Below are positions 3,001 through 57,220 of a DNA stretch of 64,000 nucleotides, piece by piece. Origin of the DNA: Escherichia phage slur09. The notes below the pieces were generated by a model. The model searched no databases, was not told the origin of the DNA, and saw nothing but the letters and a program-made list of their open reading frames with translations. Every line of letters starts with the position of its first letter. Position 1 is the first letter of the stretch. Location of the stretch: sequence record NC_028840.1; one strand, written 5' to 3'. Both the position numbers and the translations under genes were made by a program.

Positions 3001-3426
3001 AATATTAACTGTGTAACACTTAACCAGTCCTCGGACCGAAGACTTAAAGAGAATATCAATGTTATTTCTGACGCAACAGGAGCTATCAGAAAGATCAATG
3101 GATATACATACACCCTTAAAGATGGAGGTTCCAATAAGGCTGGTGTTATCGCCCAGGAAGTGATGGAAGCATTACCTGAAGCAGTAGGTTCATTTATCCG
3201 GTACGGTGAAGAACTTCCAGGCCCAACCGAAGATGGGAATACTTTGCGTGAAGAAGCATCATATCTTAACGTCGACTATTCCGCGCTTACTGGTCTTCTT
3301 GTTCAGGTGGCACGCGAAACAGATAACCGAGTCACCGAACTAGAATCAGAAGTATCTGATCTTAAAAAGCAACTTGCAGACCTAACTCTAGTAGTTAACT
3401 CTTTGTTAGCAAATAGGGCACAGTAA
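1..3426 (+). CDS. ltf: L-shaped tail fibre protein (pb1-like), 5'-partial, with C-terminal intramolecular chaperone (peptidase S74-like) domain
   Basis: Frame 1 is open from base 1 into the listed ORF 259..3426, so the start lies upstream of the window; N-terminal AAKTSETNA-type repeats; C-terminal SDRRLKENI...GYTYTLKDG...AQEVMEALPEAV motif typical of self-cleaving fibre chaperone domains. Confidence 0.85.
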   Translation, partial: TAAKTSETNANSSKTAAAASASAAKTSETNASASAAAAKTSETNANNSKNAAANSANAAKASETNAKTSETNAAASATKAENVASGMRDSIGLGSSQRECTDISGDPSGYIGFMRIRSSAKGFPSIASGENSITGFISQVDGTPAYAGVFQGWDTFSLYTYRWNPTIGPQWQRHARKNEVDKLVQLNSETQLLNPGDNAKIIITSNKLWGAYDIENRSYIPLAVGQGGTGGRSAAEARNNLQLNRFQRSSDTRTIILSTDVQKDGCYLQVDADGQWGAFNPKIGKWQALAIPQGGTGANDTSTARTNLQVMYEAKTGLDENTNLNDIKGTTAGFYYQPMSANAKPELNYPIQLAGALRVLKDGANVGYSCIQTYYVYNNPKISYSRVYNGGSDTWSDWVRNVSTGRIEEGESTTYVYSDYSPLAPRLQVGTSGLWGCHNGSSWVPLSIGQGGTGATTLQDAKTNLQIPEGGLTKAMLLQAPKGAEDGKYYPVIIDASGIEGNGNLTCPIDIKTAGRASSDPMNSNTFSGYFRCGGWSDTKDIAYGSFITYDKNELGILCLKVSQKDYPQYVAFYIHKSAFPILLQTGYKARVIVPTEDYVIGTNGVKYKFGVSTSTEGNAENSVKNALDFTGGESGFYSNLPFRQGYAYNVALTNDLNFDKNFTFTTPIFLNNGQIKATQSFTAYGTDVSNRSFVSQRLQSEGGQVVDQTELRAANGSGEIVVRDVNNSGNSKWFTFSLDGTMSSYNGIAVTASQNWAIQHNDNVNKFKPIAGSAGSPDGTMVVGGFHAQFSGNYATQFAGRNSSFWARSFEAGVDKGWKRLLTVDDLNSSTNLTVNSLTTISSVKSGSGNLTILGSTSDSSLMNCTLHGYNSAGSSLAWTIGTSASENKMLTIRNLHSEAKVLLNGVDGAIQLKTGTVGGAAAQAITINKDEVYSTVDFAITKGGKRFSIQNSANSELPFAIRVWGSSTRQNVFEVGTSAAYLFYAQKTSQGQLFDVNGNINCVTLNQSSDRRLKENINVISDATGAIRKINGYTYTLKDGGSNKAGVIAQEVMEALPEAVGSFIRYGEELPGPTEDGNTLREEASYLNVDYSALTGLLVQVARETDNRVTELESEVSDLKKQLADLTLVVNSLLANRAQ

Positions 3427-3433
3427 AAAGAAA

Positions 3434-3465
3434 CCCCAGTGGACAAAATCCACTGGGGTTTTTCT
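3434..3465 (+). terminator. Rho-independent terminator after ltf (hairpin CCCCAGTGG/CCACTGGGG plus T-run)
   Basis: GC hairpin followed by TTTTTCT directly after the ltf stop. Confidence 0.7.
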
Positions 3466-3466
3466 A

Positions 3467-3730
3467 TTATTCGCTTCTACAACCTTCTATAATACCAAGA
3501 TTATAAATAGTTAGTAGTATTTTTAAATGTTCATTATCAGTATTAGTACAAAGCTCTACAAAACCTTCAGGATCCCAGAAAGTAACATTACCTTCTTTAT
3601 CTGTTCTTAGCACAAATGTTTCTGATTCAGTAGTTTTAATCTGATAAGTTGACGTATTAGTATCAATACCTACCATATTAGGATCAGTAAAATTATTTGC
3701 TTCCTGAACTTCCAAATCCGCCTTCCCCAC
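3467..3730 (-). CDS. hypothetical small protein (true start may be the internal Met at 3676)
   Basis: ORF track; the longest ORF overlaps the dut stop, the internal ATG removes the overlap. Confidence 0.4.
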   Translation of the reverse strand: MGKADLEVQEANNFTDPNMVGIDTNTSTYQIKTTESETFVLRTDKEGNVTFWDPEGFVELCTNTDNEHLKILLTIYNLGIIEGCRSE

Positions 3731-16338: not shown

Positions 16339-17807
16339 ATATCGCTGGCCTGTTCACCTGTTGAATTTTCAGCTTTGTCTTTCTTAGCACGTTTAGATTG
16401 AGCCGGCTTATCCTTCTCAATAGGGATAACGAACTCAGCTTCCATTTGAGATATATCTTCCATTGCTAGGTTGGTAGTGTTATCCATCCGCAGGGTTTCC
16501 CAGTTCATTTTAGGCATAAACTTCACGCTATCAGAAGAACGAGTCTTAACGAAGTCAAACATAATAGCACCTTGACCATTATCAGCTTTTGCAGCATTAA
16601 GATTAGCAGCCATGTCTGCGGAATCAAGAATCCCCTTTGACATACGTGTTCTACCATCTTGATCAATCTGGTAAGGAGCTACACCAGCCACGTTATGTTT
16701 CTGGCAGATAGATTTGAAAGACGAGCTAACAACCATCTGTTCTTTCCAGTCATACATATCAATGGTTTTAGAGTCTGGAAGTCGGGTTTGGTTAATATAG
16801 TCCAGTAAAGCTACTGTAACTTTATCCCCATATCTAGCAACTAATTTATTTAATTCTACGTCAACTGTTGTAATAGACAGCTCAGGGTCATAAACAATAA
16901 TCATAGGAGTATGTAGCTCATACCCTTCTATTAGCTTACTCTCCATATCGTAGAAATCACTCATCTTAGCCATTGTATACTGTTTAACGAAGTTATCGAA
17001 AAGCTCTTCACCACCGTTAAACATCCTAGCTCTAGTTCTGGCTAATCTCAACAGAGCTGCACCTTCTAGAGTATTATTACGCATTGCTAGTGCTGATACA
17101 CCAGCTAACATAGCTAGATTACGTCTAAATACTTCATGTTCTTTCATCTCAATTGAGAAGTATGGAGCAATATCTCCATTCAAATATTGCTGAACCTGTA
17201 TGTTTGAACAGATAATGGATTTACCAGTACCACGCCAACCACCAAGCAGTAACGTTTCTGTGCGAGCTAAACCAATTTGAGCGTCGAACTCATTACAAAT
17301 ACCAAGAGCGATTAAGTTCAGTTTGGTATCTTCTTCTCTCTGGAAAATACGCATGTTATCTGCGTTGAATACTTTTCCAGTATTCGTTACTTTCTCTTCT
17401 AATTTTAAGTGAAGGGAGGCAACTCGGTTAAGAATTTCTCCCTGATCCAGCATTGTTAAATCTTGAAGCACGTCTGTTTCTAGAAGCTTCAGGAATAAAT
17501 CCTGTGTATACTCGGCCTCTAGGACTTCAAGTGCCTGTTCCATGCTAACTTCTGGAATTTGAGTGTTAGCTAAAACGACTAGAGCTTGAGAAAGGCGGGC
17601 GTTCCTATTAGCCTCAAGCATCAGTGCGTCAATGGACGGCATTGTGTTATATTTTTTATAATAATTCTGGACGGCTTGGTAAATTGAGGAGAAAGCGTCA
17701 TTAAAATGATCTTTATGCAGTTTTGAGAATGTTTCCAATGCTATTTGCTTCTGTTCAGAAGCGAGAAGCATCTTCAACACTACAGCTTGCACGTTAAACA
17801 AGGTCAT
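16335..17807 (-). CDS. DnaB-like replicative helicase
   Basis: Walker A GGWRGTGKS; start set at the internal ATG preceded by AGGAGA RBS (ORF track extends to 17858). Confidence 0.75.
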   Translation of the reverse strand: MTLFNVQAVVLKMLLASEQKQIALETFSKLHKDHFNDAFSSIYQAVQNYYKKYNTMPSIDALMLEANRNARLSQALVVLANTQIPEVSMEQALEVLEAEYTQDLFLKLLETDVLQDLTMLDQGEILNRVASLHLKLEEKVTNTGKVFNADNMRIFQREEDTKLNLIALGICNEFDAQIGLARTETLLLGGWRGTGKSIICSNIQVQQYLNGDIAPYFSIEMKEHEVFRRNLAMLAGVSALAMRNNTLEGAALLRLARTRARMFNGGEELFDNFVKQYTMAKMSDFYDMESKLIEGYELHTPMIIVYDPELSITTVDVELNKLVARYGDKVTVALLDYINQTRLPDSKTIDMYDWKEQMVVSSSFKSICQKHNVAGVAPYQIDQDGRTRMSKGILDSADMAANLNAAKADNGQGAIMFDFVKTRSSDSVKFMPKMNWETLRMDNTTNLAMEDISQMEAEFVIPIEKDKPAQSKRAKKDKAENSTGEQASDI

Positions 17808-49679: not shown

Positions 49680-49756
49680 GGGGGTGTAATCGAATTGGCA
49701 TAGGTACTGGACTTAAAATTCAGGTTTTGTGGGTTCGAATCCCACCACCCCTACCA
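49680..49756 (+). tRNA. tRNA with Leu anticodon TAA on a short-variable-arm (type I) scaffold
   Basis: Acceptor GGGGGTG/CACCCCT, A73, D-loop AATTGGCAT, anticodon arm CTGGA-CTTAAAA-TTCAG, 5-nt variable loop, T-arm GTGGG-TTCGAAT-CCCAC. Confidence 0.6.
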
Positions 49757-50634: not shown

Positions 50635-50722
50635 GGGCGTTTATTCCGTAAGTGGTAGCGGAGGGGATTGTAAATCCCTGGTCATTGCGACTCGAGTGGT
50701 TCGACTCCATTAACGCCCACCA
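50635..50722 (+). tRNA. tRNA-Tyr (anticodon GTA), long variable arm
   Basis: Acceptor GGGCGTT/AACGCCC, A73, anticodon arm GGGGA-TTGTAAA-TCCCT, long variable arm, encoded CCA. Confidence 0.75.
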
Positions 50723-52279: not shown

Positions 52280-52281
52280 AT

Positions 52282-52422
52282 TTGCTGAAAGAATTGTTAA
52301 ATCAATTCAGGCACGCGTAGGAACACTGTCTCCGTAATTGAAAGATGAGGCACGGTTTGGAGAGGTATGCTGCTACACGCTACGGTGCTAACTCCGTCTA
52401 GGTGAAAATCCTAGTCAGCAAT
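52282..52422 (+). ncRNA. tRNA-like RNA (about 141 nt) with 7-bp acceptor stem, D-like arm, T-arm and a roughly 59-nt insertion enclosed by an extended anticodon-type stem
   Basis: Perfect acceptor TTGCTGA/TCAGCAA; T-arm CTAGG-TGAAAAT-CCTAG; D-like hairpin GAATT...AATTC; 9-bp stem GCACGCGTAG/CTACGGTGC enclosing 52321-52379; no encoded CCA. Confidence 0.4.
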
Positions 52423-52431
52423 ATAAATTTA

Positions 52432-52514
52432 GGGTCGTTAGCCAAGCGGTTTGGCGGTGGACTGTTAATCCATGTCGAAAGACAACGTAGGTTCGAATCC
52501 TACACGGCCCGCCA
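52432..52514 (+). tRNA. tRNA with Asn anticodon GTT on a long-variable-arm (type II) scaffold
   Basis: Acceptor GGGTCGT/ACGGCCC, G73, D-arm GCCA/TGGC, anticodon arm GTGGA-CTGTTAA-TCCAT, 13-nt variable arm with GTC-GAAA-GAC hairpin, T-arm GTAGG-TTCGAAT-CCTAC. Confidence 0.6.
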
Positions 52515-54267: not shown

Positions 54268-54730
54268 CAAGGTGCTTCAAGCTCTAGATCTTCCAGAGCT
54301 CTTTACTATTACCGACTCCTTAATACATCGGTATATGGAAAAGTATAATGAAATCTCTGGTAAAAAAGGGAAACTAAAATCCTCAGAATTTAAGTTCTGT
54401 TATAGAATGGCAGCATTAAACCTCTTAAAGTATAAGAGGGAGCATAAAATTCCTATAACAGAAGGATTTGTCTATGTAATAGGTAATCCAGCATGGCCTG
54501 GACTATATAAGATAGGCATGACAGTAGATGTGAACGAAAGACTGTCTAGTTATCAAACATATTCGCCTTATCGTGATTACAAGTTATACCATTTCAGATT
54601 CTCCTCAGACAAGAGAAGAACTGAAAAAGCATTACATAACCTTCTGAAAGACTACAAAATATCAGGAGAATGGTTTGAAGTACCTCTGTTAGACGCCTTC
54701 AAACTATTAGTAGAAAATTTGGATTGCTAA
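54257..54730 (+). CDS. T5orf172-domain protein (GIY-YIG-like, putative homing endonuclease family)
   Basis: 157 aa; GFVYVIGNPAWPGLYKIGMT...RLSSYQTYSP motif, paralog of 50740..51231. Confidence 0.6.
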   Translation: MLINKVLQALDLPELFTITDSLIHRYMEKYNEISGKKGKLKSSEFKFCYRMAALNLLKYKREHKIPITEGFVYVIGNPAWPGLYKIGMTVDVNERLSSYQTYSPYRDYKLYHFRFSSDKRRTEKALHNLLKDYKISGEWFEVPLLDAFKLLVENLDC

Positions 54731-54798
54731 CTCAACTGGATAAGAGTACCGGACCTTTAATCCGTCAGTTCTGGGTTCGAATCCCAGGCAATCCACCA
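54721..54798 (+). tRNA. tRNA-Lys (anticodon TTT)
   Basis: Acceptor GGATTGC/GCAATCC, D-arm ACTC/GAGT, anticodon loop CCTTTAA, T-arm CTGGG-TTCGAAT-CCCAG, encoded CCA. Confidence 0.8.
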
Positions 54799-55167: not shown

Positions 55168-55244
55168 GCGTGATTGATGGAATTGGCATACATACCGTCC
55201 TTAGAAGTCGGGTTTTGAGGGTTCGAATCCCTTGTCACGCACCA
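55168..55244 (+). tRNA. tRNA with Leu anticodon TAG on a short-variable-arm (type I) scaffold
   Basis: Acceptor GCGTGAT/GTCACGC, A73, D-loop AATTGGCAT, anticodon arm CCGTC-CTTAGAA-GTCGG (one U-U), T-arm GAGGG-TTCGAAT-CCCTT; paralogous to the tRNA at 49680. Confidence 0.6.
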
Positions 55245-57133: not shown

Positions 57134-57220
57134 GCTGGGTTGGCAGAATGGTTGAATGCACCTGATTTGTAATCAGGAGGAGTAATCCCGTTGCAGGTTC
57201 GAATCCTGTGCCCAGCACCA
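57134..57220 (+). tRNA. tRNA with Thr anticodon TGT on a long-variable-arm (type II, Leu-like) scaffold
   Basis: Acceptor GCTGGGT/GCCCAGC (G1-C72, C2-G71), A73, D-arm GCA-GAATGGTTGAA-TGC, anticodon arm CCTGA-TTTGTAA-TCAGG, 15-nt variable arm, T-arm GCAGG-TTCGAAT-CCTGT, encoded CCA. Confidence 0.6.

What the first reader, a model, noticed from the sequence alone, without database searches (positions are those of the whole stretch)
52432..52514. Asn-anticodon tRNA built on a long-variable-arm scaffold
This 83-nt tRNA folds cleanly with a 13-nt variable arm (GTC-GAAA-GAC hairpin), which is a Tyr/Ser-type body, but carries anticodon GUU and G73. Bacterial Asn tRNAs normally have short variable arms. 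It may be an unusual but AsnRS-chargeable tRNA, or an identity-swapped tRNA: a single-base change separates Tyr GUA from GUU. This matters for mistranslation or for evading anticodon nucleases that recognise the tRNA body.
Basis: partly seen in the sequence, partly recalled or inferred. Interest (0 to 1): 0.6.

Follow-up and report, generated by a model that had tools for sequence, protein, structure and literature searches.

The report
Phage asparagine tRNA with extra arm
This T5-like phage carries a real, strongly conserved asparagine tRNA that has an extra small hairpin normally seen only in leucine, serine and tyrosine tRNAs; I found no description of this design, yet it recurs in about one in eleven phage asparagine tRNA genes sampled, and it may help phage tRNAs escape bacterial tRNA-cutting defences.

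Summary
Window 52432-52514 (+) is an 83-nt tRNA with anticodon GUU, G73, an encoded CCA and a 13-nt variable arm (GUC-GAAA-GAC plus AAC).

- **Not an error.** The identical sequence is in more than 200 T5-like phage genomes. Relatives occur in T4-like, Phapecoctavirus, Proteus and Serratia phages, and all three variable-arm pairs show compensatory changes.
- **Not a Tyr/Ser body.** Without the hairpin, the body scores best as a canonical tRNA-Asn. The anticodon arm differs from E. coli asnT by one compensated base pair, and all four known AsnRS determinants are present. It is only 66% identical to this phage's tRNA-Tyr.
- **An alternative allele.** T5 itself has a different, 78-nt short-loop tRNA-Asn in the same genomic slot. 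That T5 tRNA helped rescue cells from the PARIS nuclease AriB. The window allele has not been tested.
- **A wider class.** 137 distinct long-arm tRNA(GUU) genes were found in viral contigs and bacterial tRNA arrays. G73 occurs in 96%, the hairpin is usually 3-4 bp, and a GNRA loop caps 74.

Best reading: a working Asn tRNA with an acquired, selected hairpin. An anti-nuclease role for the hairpin is inferred, not shown. I found no published description. Interest is about 0.6.

The parts
52432..52514 (+). tRNA-Asn(GUU) gene, 83 nt, with encoded CCA and a class-II-like variable arm
   Evidence: ARAGORN; Rfam RF00005, 59 bits; minimum-free-energy cloverleaf; covariation in all five helices.
52464..52466 (+). 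Anticodon GTT (positions 34-36) in the loop CUGUUAA. The anticodon arm spans 52457-52473.
   Evidence: The arm differs from E. coli asnT only by the compensated pair U28-A42.
52474..52486 (+). Variable arm: stem GTC (52474-52476) pairs with GAC (52481-52483), GNRA tetraloop GAAA (52477-52480), and three unpaired bases AAC (52484-52486)
   Evidence: Fold. All 3 pairs have compensatory changes among relatives and 96.9% of cells pair. The same design recurs in 137 unique long-arm GUU tRNAs.
52511..52511 (+). Discriminator G73, an AsnRS determinant and an antideterminant for TyrRS and LeuRS
   Evidence: Sequence. G73 is present in 132 of 137 long-arm GUU tRNAs. Identity rules are from PMC9976931.
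52292..52489 (.). Allele-specific cassette: the spacer plus the first 58 nt of the tRNA. It has no counterpart in phage T5, which instead carries ORF T5.069 plus a 78-nt short-loop tRNA-Asn.
   Evidence: blastn of the window against T5. Homology ends at window 52291 and resumes at 52490.

Best explanation
This is a working asparagine tRNA of a T5-like phage. It reads AAC and AAU codons and is charged by the host AsnRS. AsnRS relies on the anticodon G34-U35-U36 and on G73, and all four are present. The body is otherwise of Asn type.

The unusual part is a 3-bp hairpin capped by a GNRA loop, inserted in the variable region. This gives a class-I tRNA the outline of a class-II tRNA. The hairpin is kept by selection.

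The gene is one of at least two alternative alleles in the same slot of T5-like genomes:
- T5 itself carries a short-loop allele whose anticodon stem is mutated at the PARIS/AriB cleavage site (UAAGUU).
- The window allele keeps the host-like site (UAAUCC) and instead carries the extra arm, plus C16 in the D loop.

My proposed mechanism is inferred, not shown. [quoted passage not shown] There it could change how tRNA-targeting enzymes grip the tRNA, above all nucleases that cut the anticodon stem such as AriB. The anticodon arm would stay unchanged for charging, modification and decoding.

Sub-claims and their likelihood:
- Asn acceptor and decoder: about 0.85.
- Hairpin under purifying selection: about 0.9.
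- Hairpin serves escape from tRNA-targeting enzymes: about 0.4.
For: **Shown**
- The gene and its fold.
- Compensatory changes in every helix, including the variable arm.
- The tRNA is more conserved than its flanks: at least 99% identical in 206 records, against 13 records for the surrounding 701 bp.
- With the hairpin excised, the body scores 45.7 bits on a canonical-Asn profile and at most 24.9 on any other. With the anticodon also masked, Asn still ranks first, narrowly (28.2 against Cys 24.4).
- The anticodon arm is 17 of 17 identical to E. coli asnT in the CBH8, CC31, Ro121c4 and Cronus alleles. In the window it differs by one compensated pair.
- It is the only Asn tRNA in the phage's set and sits at the syntenic position of T5 tRNA-Asn.

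**Class-level evidence**
- Among 137 unique long-arm GUU tRNAs, G73 occurs in 96% and U1-A72 in 77%. A hairpin of at least 3 bp forms in 84%, against 35% of shuffles. There are 44 different inner stems, and 74 GNRA loops among 94 tetraloops.
- Other long-arm class-I tRNAs keep the discriminator expected for their anticodon (Cys U73 8 of 8, Lys A73 8 of 9, Met A73 13 of 15, Pro A73 6 of 6). Identity therefore follows the anticodon, not the arm.
- Asn arms are short, with a median of 15 nt and 3 bp. Only 12% reach 5 bp, against 73% of tRNA-Ser arms.
- Origins are independent. D arms are very diverse. In Labilibaculum, a tandem array holds three canonical Asn genes and two near-identical ones with a 14-nt hairpin inserted.

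**From the literature**
- GUU plus G73 transplanted into tRNA-Lys confers Asn identity (PMC9976931).
- AriB cuts E. coli tRNA-Lys(UUU), Thr(UGU) and Asn(GUU) between positions 40 and 41. The T5 Lys, Thr and Asn tRNAs together rescue cells. AriB also needs contacts outside the anticodon arm, including U16 (PMC12409363).

**Pattern in this window**
- The only two class-I tRNAs with long arms are Asn(GUU) and Thr(UGU). Both are AriB targets and both keep the host-like UAAUC site. The short T5 alleles have UAAGU and UAAGC. The chance that both long-arm tRNAs fall among the 3 AriB targets is about 3 in 171, counted after the fact.
Against: - No aminoacylation, expression or cleavage data exist for this allele. 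The published PARIS rescue used the different T5 allele.
- Class II synthetases such as AsnRS approach the tRNA from the variable-loop side (general knowledge). A long arm could lower charging.
- The window lineage has G1-C72, G2-C71, C11-G24 and G73, which are also E. coli tRNA-Ser acceptor and D-stem determinants.
- Long arms also occur in isotypes that are not known AriB targets (Met, Cys, Trp, Pro, Asp). Any shielding role cannot be specific to PARIS.
- The two long-arm alleles assort independently. Bas32 has the long Asn but a short Thr.
- C16 alone could account for AriB resistance, without any role for the arm.
- My isotype profiles are sequence-only stand-ins for tRNAscan-SE models.
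Confidence: 0.45

Rival explanations
1. It is a working Asn tRNA, but the extra arm has no role of its own. It arose as an insertion or by recombination between tRNA genes. It persists because, once the core has adapted to it, loss is harmful (structural lock-in).
For: - Covariation shows only that the hairpin must fold, not why.
- GNRA loops are simply the most stable caps for 3-bp stems (established RNA thermodynamics).
- Long arms are scattered over many isotypes at 3-19%.
- AsnRS reads mainly the anticodon and G73, so the rest of the body is free to drift.
- The T5 allele at the same slot works without the arm.
Against: - The same small design arose independently on very different scaffolds, including a clean insertion in a tandem array of otherwise near-identical genes.
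- The bacterial copies examined sit mostly in multi-gene tRNA arrays, a type of locus others regard as putative anti-defence elements (PMC12803027).
- 15 of 97 viral loci carry both a canonical and a long-arm Asn gene.
- Long-arm Thr(UGU) is commoner in contigs that also have a long-arm Asn (11 of 59 against 1 of 35).
Confidence: 0.35
2. It is a mischarged or dual-identity tRNA. The long arm plus G73, with G1-C72 and G2-C71, lets SerRS charge it, or the Tyr-like arm with G34 and U35 lets TyrRS charge it. Asn codons would then be partly read as Ser or Tyr.
For: - Serine identity rests mainly on the variable arm and ignores the anticodon. G73, G1-C72 and G2-C71 are Ser features (PMC9976931; PMC7609411).
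- Nematode V-arm tRNAs with a non-Leu/Ser anticodon decode an alternative code for leucine (PMC3333845 title and abstract). By my recollection they are leucylated according to the body.
- The arm stem GUC/GAC is the same as in the E. coli (from memory) and phage tRNA-Tyr arms.
Against: - The arm has 3 bp and 13 nt, the size of Tyr and Leu arms. tRNA-Ser arms in the same data have a median of 18 nt and 5 bp.
- E. coli SerRS recognises the characteristic tertiary structure of tRNA-Ser. From memory, Himeno et al. 1990 found that tRNA-Tyr with A73 changed to G and its native 3-bp arm was not serylated; I could not retrieve the paper.
- A73 is critical for TyrRS and LeuRS, and this tRNA has G73.
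- 77% of the class have the Asn-type U1-A72 pair rather than the Ser-type G1-C72.
- Other long-arm class-I tRNAs keep the discriminator expected for their anticodon.
- It is the phage's only Asn tRNA and is conserved in hundreds of lytic phages, so proteome-wide Asn-to-Ser substitution is unlikely to be tolerated.
Confidence: 0.07
3. Its main role is not in translation. It acts as a decoy or competitive inhibitor that binds a host tRNase through its host-identical anticodon arm without being productively cut.
For: - The anticodon arm is host-like, including the UAAUCC site.
- Belukhina et al. raise the possibility that overexpressed viral tRNAs inhibit AriB by competition.
Against: - For P2 OLD, a phage tRNA-Thr supplemented the tRNA pool and did not inhibit the nuclease (preprint 10.64898/2026.07.10.737580).
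- The gene keeps everything a translating tRNA needs: a 7/5 acceptor and T-arm arrangement, the T loop, G73, CCA and the Asn identity set.
- A decoy would not need correct Asn identity elements, yet these are conserved across the class.
Confidence: 0.08
4. It is an artefact, a pseudogene, or a mispredicted anticodon loop.
For: Chimeric, broken derivatives do exist. In phage Bas34, the 5' two-thirds of this allele is fused to the 3' end of the fMet tRNA.
Against: - Three independent methods agree on the fold and the anticodon.
- All stems are intact and show covariation.
- The sequence is identical in more than 200 independently sequenced genomes.
Confidence: 0.01

Closest known systems
Phage T5 tRNA-Asn(GUU) (T5t17), one of the three T5 tRNAs that neutralise PARIS/AriB (Belukhina et al. 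2025, PMC12409363)
   Same: It occupies the same genomic slot, between tRNA-Cys and the rna3/tRNA-Asp region. It has the same anticodon, G73, G1-C72 and G2-C71, and the same 3' flank.
   Different: The T5 allele is 78 nt with a 5-nt variable loop and an altered anticodon arm (GCAUC-UUGUUAA-GUUGA; positions 36-41 are UAAGUU). It is linked to ORF T5.069. The window allele is 83 nt, keeps the host-like UAAUCC, and has a 13-nt hairpin arm. Homology between the two is limited to the T loop and the 3' end. Only the T5 allele has been tested.
Canonical bacterial tRNA-Asn (E. coli asnT)
   Same: It shares the anticodon loop CUGUUAA, G26 and the anticodon stem (one compensated pair differs), G73, and the 7/5 acceptor and T-arm arrangement. 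The hairpin-excised body scores best on the canonical Asn profile.
   Different: asnT has a 5-nt variable loop (AUGUC), U1-A72 and U16. The window tRNA has a 13-nt hairpin arm, G1-C72 and C16. Overall identity is 61%.
Bacterial class II (type II) tRNAs: Leu, Ser, Tyr
   Same: It has a variable region of at least 10 nt that folds into a stem-loop. The arm's size and layout (3 bp, 13 nt, stem starting right after the anticodon stem) resemble tRNA-Tyr and tRNA-Leu arms.
   Different: The anticodon and discriminator are for Asn. The D arm is class-I type (4-bp stem, 7-nt loop). Nearest relatives of the 5' half are class-I tRNAs. Profile scores are Ser 24.8 and Tyr 24.4 against Asn 36-49.
nev-tRNAs and nov-tRNAs: V-arm-containing tRNAs with non-Leu/Ser anticodons in nematodes and other eukaryotes (Hamashima et al. 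2012, PMC3333845; the 2016 paper is cited in PMC5389517)
   Same: Both combine a class-II outline with an anticodon of a class-I amino acid.
   Different: The nematode tRNAs decode an alternative code for leucine (PMC3333845 title). By my recollection their bodies are Leu-type and they are leucylated regardless of anticodon. Here the body, the discriminator and the anticodon all point to Asn, and the setting is phages and mobile tRNA arrays.
allo-tRNAs and (8/4) tRNAs of bacteria and phages (Mukai et al. 2017, PMC5389517)
   Same: These are also non-canonical tRNAs found in phage tRNA clusters. They have long V arms and G73 or U73.
   Different: allo-tRNAs have 8/4 or 9/3 acceptor and T stems and Sec-like D arms, and they are predicted Ser acceptors. 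The window tRNA is a regular 7/5 cloverleaf.
Type I (short-loop) tRNA-Leu, e.g. in Streptomyces coelicolor (PMC6614811)
   Same: This is the mirror-image exception to the class I / class II rule. The same window also carries two 77-nt short-loop tRNA-Leu genes.
   Different: There an isotype that normally has the arm has lost it. Here an isotype that normally lacks the arm has gained it.

Membership tests
tRNA (Rfam RF00005) | Cloverleaf with a 7-bp acceptor stem, D arm, anticodon arm with a 7-nt loop, and T arm with a GTTCRANYC loop, scoring above the gathering threshold | tested here: met
   59 bits against a threshold of 29; ARAGORN call; minimum-free-energy fold; covariation in all helices.
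Bacterial tRNA-Asn (AsnRS substrate) | Identity set G34, U35, U36 and discriminator G73 | tested here: met
   Read from the sequence. The identity set is from Li et al. 1993 as summarised in PMC9976931.
Bacterial tRNA-Asn (AsnRS substrate) | Class-I architecture with a 4-5-nt variable loop | tested here: not met
   The variable region is a 13-nt hairpin. Canonical phage Asn tRNAs in an unselected scan have gaps that correspond to 4-6-nt loops.
Bacterial tRNA-Asn (AsnRS substrate) | Actual charging with asparagine and decoding of AAC/AAU | not testable with these tools
   Needs an aminoacylation assay or mass spectrometry. The only indirect evidence is a different allele (T5) that complements Asn(GUU) depletion.
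Bacterial tRNA-Asn (transamidation route) | U1-A72 pair, the GatCAB determinant | tested here: not met
   The window tRNA has G1-C72. This does not matter in hosts that have AsnRS. 77% of the wider long-arm class do have U1-A72.
Class II (type II) tRNA | Variable region of 10 nt or more forming a stem-loop | tested here: met
   13 nt, 3-bp stem and GAAA loop. The pairs covary.
Class II (type II) tRNA | Isotype Leu, Ser or Tyr (or Sec), with a body of that type | tested here: not met
   The anticodon is GUU. Nearest bodies are class-I tRNAs. Profile scores are Ser 24.8 and Tyr 24.4 against Asn 36-49.
tRNA-Tyr (bacterial) | A73, U35, G34 and anticodon GUA with a long arm | tested here: not met
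   G73 and U36 are present instead. Identity to this phage's tRNA-Tyr is 66%. A73 is critical for TyrRS.
tRNA-Ser (bacterial) | G73, G1-C72, G2-C71 and C11-G24 | tested here: met
   All four are present in the window sequence. The first three are listed in PMC9976931; C11-G24 is from my knowledge of Normanly et al. 1992.
tRNA-Ser (bacterial) | A long variable arm of Ser size and orientation, typically 5-7 bp | tested here: not met
   The arm has 3 bp and 13 nt. tRNA-Ser arms in the same data set have a median of 18 nt and 5 bp, and 73% have at least 5 bp.
PARIS-evading phage tRNA set (T5 Lys/Thr/Asn) | Substitutions at or around the AriB site U36-A-A-U-C|N41 | tested here: not met
   The window Asn has UAAUCC, the same as E. 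coli tRNA-Asn. T5 has UAAGUU.
PARIS-evading phage tRNA set (T5 Lys/Thr/Asn) | Resistance to AriB cleavage, or rescue of PARIS toxicity | not testable with these tools
   Only the T5 allele was assayed. The window allele does carry C16, the position where U16-to-C impaired cleavage of tRNA-Lys.
allo-tRNA | 8/4 or 9/3 acceptor and T-stem arrangement | tested here: not met
   The arrangement is a regular 7/5.

The most novel reading that the evidence does not exclude
A short, GNRA-capped variable-arm hairpin is a modular 'shield' that has been added repeatedly and independently to class-I tRNAs (Asn above all, and also Thr, Met, Cys and others) in phages and mobile tRNA arrays. It would let these tRNAs keep a host-identical anticodon arm, for full charging, modification and decoding. 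At the same time it would block host defence nucleases that grip the anticodon stem and D-arm region (PARIS AriB at 40|41, OLD at 27-29, bacterial Schlafen at 30|31). This would be a second, structural route of phage tRNA escape, distinct from the known route of mutating the anticodon stem-loop.
Probability: 0.3. Interest if true: 0.8.

Novelty: new variant of a known kind. Interest (0 to 1): 0.6.

Why it matters
Textbooks restrict long variable arms in bacteria to Leu, Ser, Tyr and Sec tRNAs. Here an Asn tRNA with such an arm is the commoner allele among T5-like phages (about 267 records against about 132 for the T5 type). About 9% of phage Asn tRNA genes sampled without selection share the design, and it has several independent origins.

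If AsnRS charges it, the result shows how little of the tRNA body AsnRS needs. That is useful for tRNA engineering.

If the arm protects against tRNA-cutting defence systems, it is a new counter-defence principle: changing the shape rather than the cleavage-site sequence. The test is easy, because natural allele pairs exist. T5 and this phage differ for both Asn and Thr(UGU), and the AriB assays are already published.

The result also warns that 'phage tRNA-Asn' is not one entity across T5-like phages. Bas34's copy is a broken chimera. This bears on how published PARIS rescue experiments are read.

Tried and rejected
1. **Derived from a host tRNA.** blastn of the 83 nt against 5,426 E. coli genomes gave only marginal hits (E about 1-2, mostly tRNA-Lys). 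Rejected.

2. **Recent switch from Tyr.** Identity to the phage tRNA-Tyr is 66%, no better than to Asp or Lys. The Tyr profile scores 24 bits. Rejected.

3. **Remoulded Ser or Tyr scaffold.** The related alleles have a D arm (GCUGAGCGGUUUAAGC) that looked Ser-like by eye. However, nearest-neighbour and profile tests place the window body with class-I and Asn tRNAs. Not supported for this lineage.

4. **Using published Bas34 data to judge the allele.** Bas34's 'tRNA-Asn' is a chimera of this allele's 5' part and the 3' end of the fMet tRNA, and ARAGORN does not call it. It says nothing about the intact allele.

5. **A long-arm His in Bas34 as a third AriB-linked case.** It looks like another fusion product. 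Dropped.

6. **The OLD tRNase preprint as evidence for long-arm Thr.** The Bas32 Thr(UGU) used there is the 75-nt short allele. Not relevant.

7. **A phage 'tRNA amidotransferase' as a partner.** The window homologue (44122-44556) has only a sub-threshold YqeY match (E = 4e-4, 20.8 bits against a cutoff of 27). It is also present in T5, which has the short allele. No link was established.

8. **The spacer 52280-52431 and the rna3 region.** No Rfam family was found at E up to 1. Promoter and terminator scans were at background.

9. **Literature.** Nine full-text searches found no paper describing a long-variable-arm tRNA-Asn in phages or bacteria. A review of non-canonical tRNAs does not mention one. 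Himeno et al. 1990 could not be retrieved.

10. **tRNAscan-SE isotype models.** These were not available. I used home-made sequence profiles instead. The first run had stale and missing models, which was corrected.
Full report
**1. What is there**

ARAGORN finds 21 tRNA genes in the window. One is tRNA-Asn(gtt) at exactly 52432-52514 on the + strand. Rfam's tRNA model scores it 59 bits (E = 8e-11) and treats 'ucgaaagaca' as an insertion in the variable region. The minimum-free-energy fold of the 83 nt is a cloverleaf plus a small extra hairpin.

Read from the sequence, the parts are:
- acceptor stem GGGUCGU/ACGGCCC
- D arm GCCA-AGCGGUU-UGGC
- G26
- anticodon arm GUGGA-CUGUUAA-UCCAU
- variable region GUC-GAAA-GAC-AAC
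- T arm GUAGG-UUCGAAU-CCUAC
- G73, then an encoded CCA

**2. Where the window comes from, and whether the gene is an accident**

The surrounding 701 bp match T5-like phages (Demerecviridae). The best hit is Salmonella phage Kenya-K15 at 99.3%.

The 83-nt gene is at least 99% identical in 206 phage records and 95-99% identical in 61 more. Only 13 records match the flanking 701 bp at 99% or better, so the tRNA is more conserved than its surroundings.

Clear relatives of 79-92% identity and 84-88 nt occur in several other phage groups:
- Epseptimavirus (bobsandoy)
- Proteus phage PM135
- Serratia phages CHI14 and CBH8 (Winklervirus)
- Karamvirus CC31 and PG7, and many T4-like Klebsiella phages
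- Phapecoctavirus Ro121c4YLVW

I aligned twelve such relatives and counted pairs. 97.9% of cells form standard pairs, against 74.1% in shuffles, and none of 500 shuffles reaches the observed value. Sliding the partners by one to three columns drops pairing to 35-53%. All three pairs of the variable-arm helix show changes on both sides (GUC/GAC, GUUC/GAAC, AUCC/GGAU, GAGG/CCUC, GGGU/ACCC, GAGC/GCUC, GAAC/GUUC). The hairpin is therefore a selected structure, not a sequencing error or a chance fold.

**3. Is it a Tyr or Ser tRNA in disguise?**

The evidence says no.
- It is 66% identical to this phage's tRNA-Tyr. That is about the same as to Asp (64%) and Lys (61%), and to E. coli tRNA-Tyr (64%) and tRNA-Asn (61%).
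- No close E. coli relative exists.
- Its 5' half (acceptor strand plus D arm) is closest to class-I tRNAs: Lys, Gln, Cys, His and Phe. Ser, Tyr and Leu each appear once among neighbours at 68% identity or more.

tRNAscan-SE isotype models were not available. The scores for the window tRNA were:

| Query form | Best score | Other scores |
|---|---|---|
| Full tRNA | long-arm Asn with its own relatives removed, 48.7 bits | canonical Asn 36.0; Ser 24.8; Tyr 24.4 |
| Hairpin excised | canonical Asn, 45.7 bits | next other isotype Cys 24.9 |
| Hairpin excised and anticodon masked | canonical Asn, 28.2 bits | Cys 24.4 |

E. coli asnT was retrieved from MG1655. Its G26 and anticodon arm (GCGGA-CUGUUAA-UCCGU) are reproduced exactly in the CBH8, CC31, Ro121c4 and Cronus alleles. 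The window allele differs by one compensated pair.

The gene is best described as an Asn-type class-I tRNA with a hairpin inserted in the variable loop.

**4. Which amino acid?**

This cannot be measured here. In E. coli, Asn identity is given by the three anticodon bases and G73, and these four bases transplanted into tRNA-Lys confer Asn identity (PMC9976931). All four are present.

A73 is critical for both TyrRS and LeuRS, which argues against those enzymes.

SerRS is the serious alternative. It ignores the anticodon and relies on the long arm, with G73, G1-C72 and G2-C71, and the window lineage has those bases. Three observations argue against it:
- The arm is small. Long-arm Asn tRNAs have a median of 15 nt and 3 bp, and only 12% reach 5 bp. 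tRNA-Ser in the same data has a median of 18 nt and 5 bp, and 73% reach 5 bp. Leu and Tyr arms are 13-14 nt with 3 bp.
- 77% of the class carry the Asn-type U1-A72 pair.
- Long-arm versions of other class-I tRNAs keep the discriminator that belongs to their anticodon: Cys U73 in 8 of 8, Lys A73 in 8 of 9, Met A73 in 13 of 15, Pro A73 in 6 of 6, and Asn G73 in 132 of 139. Identity tracks the anticodon, not the arm.

The window tRNA is also the phage's only Asn tRNA and sits where T5 has its tRNA-Asn. I put Asn charging at about 0.85 and mischarging at about 0.07.

**5. An allele, not the T5 gene**

Phage T5 itself (NC_005859) has a different tRNA-Asn at the same place. It is 78 nt with a 5-nt variable loop and an unusual anticodon arm (GCAUC-UUGUUAA-GUUGA).

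blastn of the window against T5 shows that homology stops just after tRNA-Cys (window 52291) and resumes inside the T arm (window 52490). About 200 bp here (spacer plus long-arm tRNA) replace about 560 bp in T5 (ORF T5.069 plus the short tRNA).

In the phage collection, the long-arm allele is at least 95% identical in about 267 records and the T5-type allele in about 132. Other tRNAs differ in the same way:

| tRNA | This window | T5 |
|---|---|---|
| Thr(UGU) | 87 nt, 15-nt arm | 75 nt |
| Leu(UAG) | 77 nt | 85 nt |

**6. Link to tRNA-cutting defences**

Belukhina et al. 2025 (PMC12409363) report the following:
- The PARIS effector AriB cuts E. coli tRNA-Lys(UUU), Thr(UGU) and, more weakly, Asn(GUU) between positions 40 and 41 (U36-A-A-U-C|C41 in Asn).
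- T5 tRNA-Lys, Thr and Asn together rescue cells.
- Restoring the host site in T5 tRNA-Lys does not restore cleavage.
- U16 in the D loop matters.
- An AlphaFold 3 model has the dimer spanning positions 40/41 and the D loop.
- The word 'variable' does not occur in that paper's main text.

The T5 Asn used there is the short allele, with UAAGUU at positions 36-41. The window allele keeps UAAUCC and has C16. The same contrast holds for Thr(UGU): T5 short has UAAGCA, while the window's long allele has the host-like UAAUCA.

The only two class-I tRNAs in this window with long arms are thus two of AriB's three main targets. Both keep the host cleavage-site sequence. The chance of that coincidence is about 3 in 171, counted after the fact.

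The arm emerges three to four nucleotides downstream of the cut, on the same strand. From this I infer that the arm may be a structural alternative to mutating the site. This is a hypothesis. No experiment has used this allele.

Two leads turned out not to bear on it:
- Bas34's 'tRNA-Asn', which the authors found insufficient, is a broken chimera of this allele and the fMet tRNA.
- The Bas32 Thr(UGU) that resists P2 OLD is a short allele.

**7. A much wider class**

So did the same scan of one genome per GTDB species.

After ARAGORN and parsing, there are 137 distinct long-arm tRNA(GUU) genes. Their features are:
- G73 in 132 and U1-A72 in 106.
- Variable region of 10-22 nt.
- A hairpin of at least 3 bp in 84%, against 35% of shuffled arms (mean z = -3.4).
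- 44 different inner stems.
- 94 tetraloops, of which 74 are GNRA and 50 are GAAA.

D arms range from Tyr-, Ser- and Leu-like to ordinary class-I, so the class has several origins. In Labilibaculum manganireducens, a tandem array holds three canonical Asn genes and two near-identical ones with a 14-nt hairpin inserted.

In an unselected scan that accepted both short and long arms, 11 of the first 120 hits were long (about 9%).

The bacterial copies I examined are mostly inside arrays of about 10 to 36 tRNA genes (Micromonospora, Verrucosispora, Planctomycetaceae and others). These arrays also contain short tRNA-Leu genes. Copies in Solirubrobacterales are solitary. Others regard such arrays as putative anti-defence elements (PMC12803027).

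15 of 97 viral loci carry both a canonical and a long-arm Asn gene.

Long arms also occur in other isotypes. In contigs selected for a long-arm Asn, the counts are Thr(UGU) 11 of 59, Met 12 of 89 and Cys 6 of 31. In contigs with a canonical Asn, they are Thr 1 of 35, Met 7 of 47 and Cys 3 of 17. Whatever selects for the arm is therefore not specific to Asn or to PARIS.

**8. What is known**

The gene is annotated as tRNA-Asn in hundreds of GenBank records, so its existence is not new.

I found no paper that notes its class-II-like shape or the wider class. A 2020 review of non-canonical tRNAs does not mention it.

The nearest concepts are nematode and eukaryotic V-arm tRNAs with class-I anticodons, allo-tRNAs, and the reverse case of short-loop tRNA-Leu.

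I classify it as a new variant of a known kind.

**9. Verdict**

- The 'Tyr/Ser body' and 'identity swap' readings are not supported.
- 'AsnRS-chargeable but unusual' is well supported by sequence logic and comparison, but it is unmeasured.
- 'Nuclease evasion through the body' is a reasonable, testable hypothesis (about 0.4 in its broad form).
- The main rival is that the arm is a tolerated and then locked-in insertion (about 0.35).

Noticed in passing
window 57134-57220 (+): tRNA-Thr(UGU) is 87 nt, with a 15-nt variable arm (GGA-GUAA-UCC, a GNRA loop) and A73. It keeps the host-like AriB site UAAUCA. T5 has a 75-nt allele with UAAGCA. The long allele is at least 94% identical in about 98 T5-like records. 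My profiles score its body highest on Ser (40.8 bits), above Thr (29.8).
   Followed up: partly
window 49680-49756 and 55168-55244 (+): Both tRNA-Leu genes (UAA and UAG) are 77 nt, with a 5-nt variable loop and A73. They are class-I-shaped Leu tRNAs, whereas T5's Leu(UAG) is a normal 85-nt class-II tRNA. Short Leu tRNAs are also common in the viral contigs (15 of 41 for UAA) and in the bacterial tRNA arrays.
   Followed up: partly
L243 (Escherichia phage SelmaRatti/Bas34, MZ501103) 17599-17683: The gene annotated tRNA-Asn is a chimera. The 5' two-thirds of the window-type long-arm Asn is fused in the T arm to the 3' end and downstream flank of the fMet tRNA. The acceptor stem no longer pairs, and ARAGORN does not call it. 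This probably explains why Bas34 needed the T5 tRNA-Asn for rescue from PARIS in PMC12409363.
   Followed up: yes
L243 19522-19612: Bas34's 'tRNA-His' (88-91 nt) has the normal His 5' part followed by an unrelated 3' part. It is probably another deletion fusion rather than a true long-arm His.
   Followed up: partly
window 54721-54798 (+): tRNA-Lys(UUU) has the anticodon loop CCUUUAA. That puts C at position 33, where U is almost universal. It also has UAAUCC at positions 36-41 (A41 to C relative to E. coli). It differs from T5's tRNA-Lys (CUUUUAA, UAAACC).
   Followed up: no
window 52292-52489 versus T5 NC_005859 33977-34534: The Asn allele swap involves a whole cassette. T5 has ORF T5.069 overlapping the 5' end of its short tRNA-Asn. 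In other records the ORF at this position is annotated 'T5orf172 domain-containing protein-like protein'. The window has only a 152-nt spacer. This suggests that tRNA alleles move with small selfish ORFs in this region, which is rich in HNH endonuclease genes.
   Followed up: partly
window 44122-44556 (+): This 144-aa ORF appears to be the homologue of T5.081 by position and size. T5.081 is annotated 'tRNA amidotransferase' in T5. The ORF has only a sub-threshold match to the YqeY/GatB-tail domain (PF09424, E = 4e-4, 20.8 bits against a cutoff of 27). A tRNA-binding role is possible but unproven.
   Followed up: partly
window 49097-49171 and 44817-44888 (+); 50635-50722 (+): Rfam reports two tRNA hits that ARAGORN misses: a CAU-anticodon tRNA next to Ser(GCU), which matches T5's Ile2(CAU), and a degenerate tRNA-like element in the T5 'rnaX' region. 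Conversely, ARAGORN's tRNA-Tyr at 50635-50722 is absent from the Rfam gathering-threshold list.
   Followed up: no
L149 (Labilibaculum manganireducens) 3113-3692; L156 421-613: Bacteroidota chromosomes hold tandem tRNA-Asn arrays in which some copies match their canonical neighbours almost exactly but carry a 14-nt hairpin inserted in the variable loop.
   Followed up: partly
L136, L141, L182 (Micromonospora/Verrucosispora); L138, L142, L148, L181, L210 (Planctomycetaceae): These loci contain large tRNA arrays of about 9-36 genes within a few kb. Each array includes a long-arm tRNA-Asn (81-90 nt), and most also include short (74-77 nt) tRNA-Leu. I did not establish whether the arrays are mobile, or whether their Asn gene is the only one in those genomes.
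   Followed up: no
viral loci L001-L120 and L250-L358: Long variable arms (tRNA length of 80 nt or more) also occur in phage tRNAs for Met(CAU), Cys, Ile(UAU), Trp, Pro, Asp, Lys, Glu, Gln, His and Val, at roughly 3-19% per isotype. Those that could be parsed keep their isotype's usual discriminator base.
   Followed up: partly
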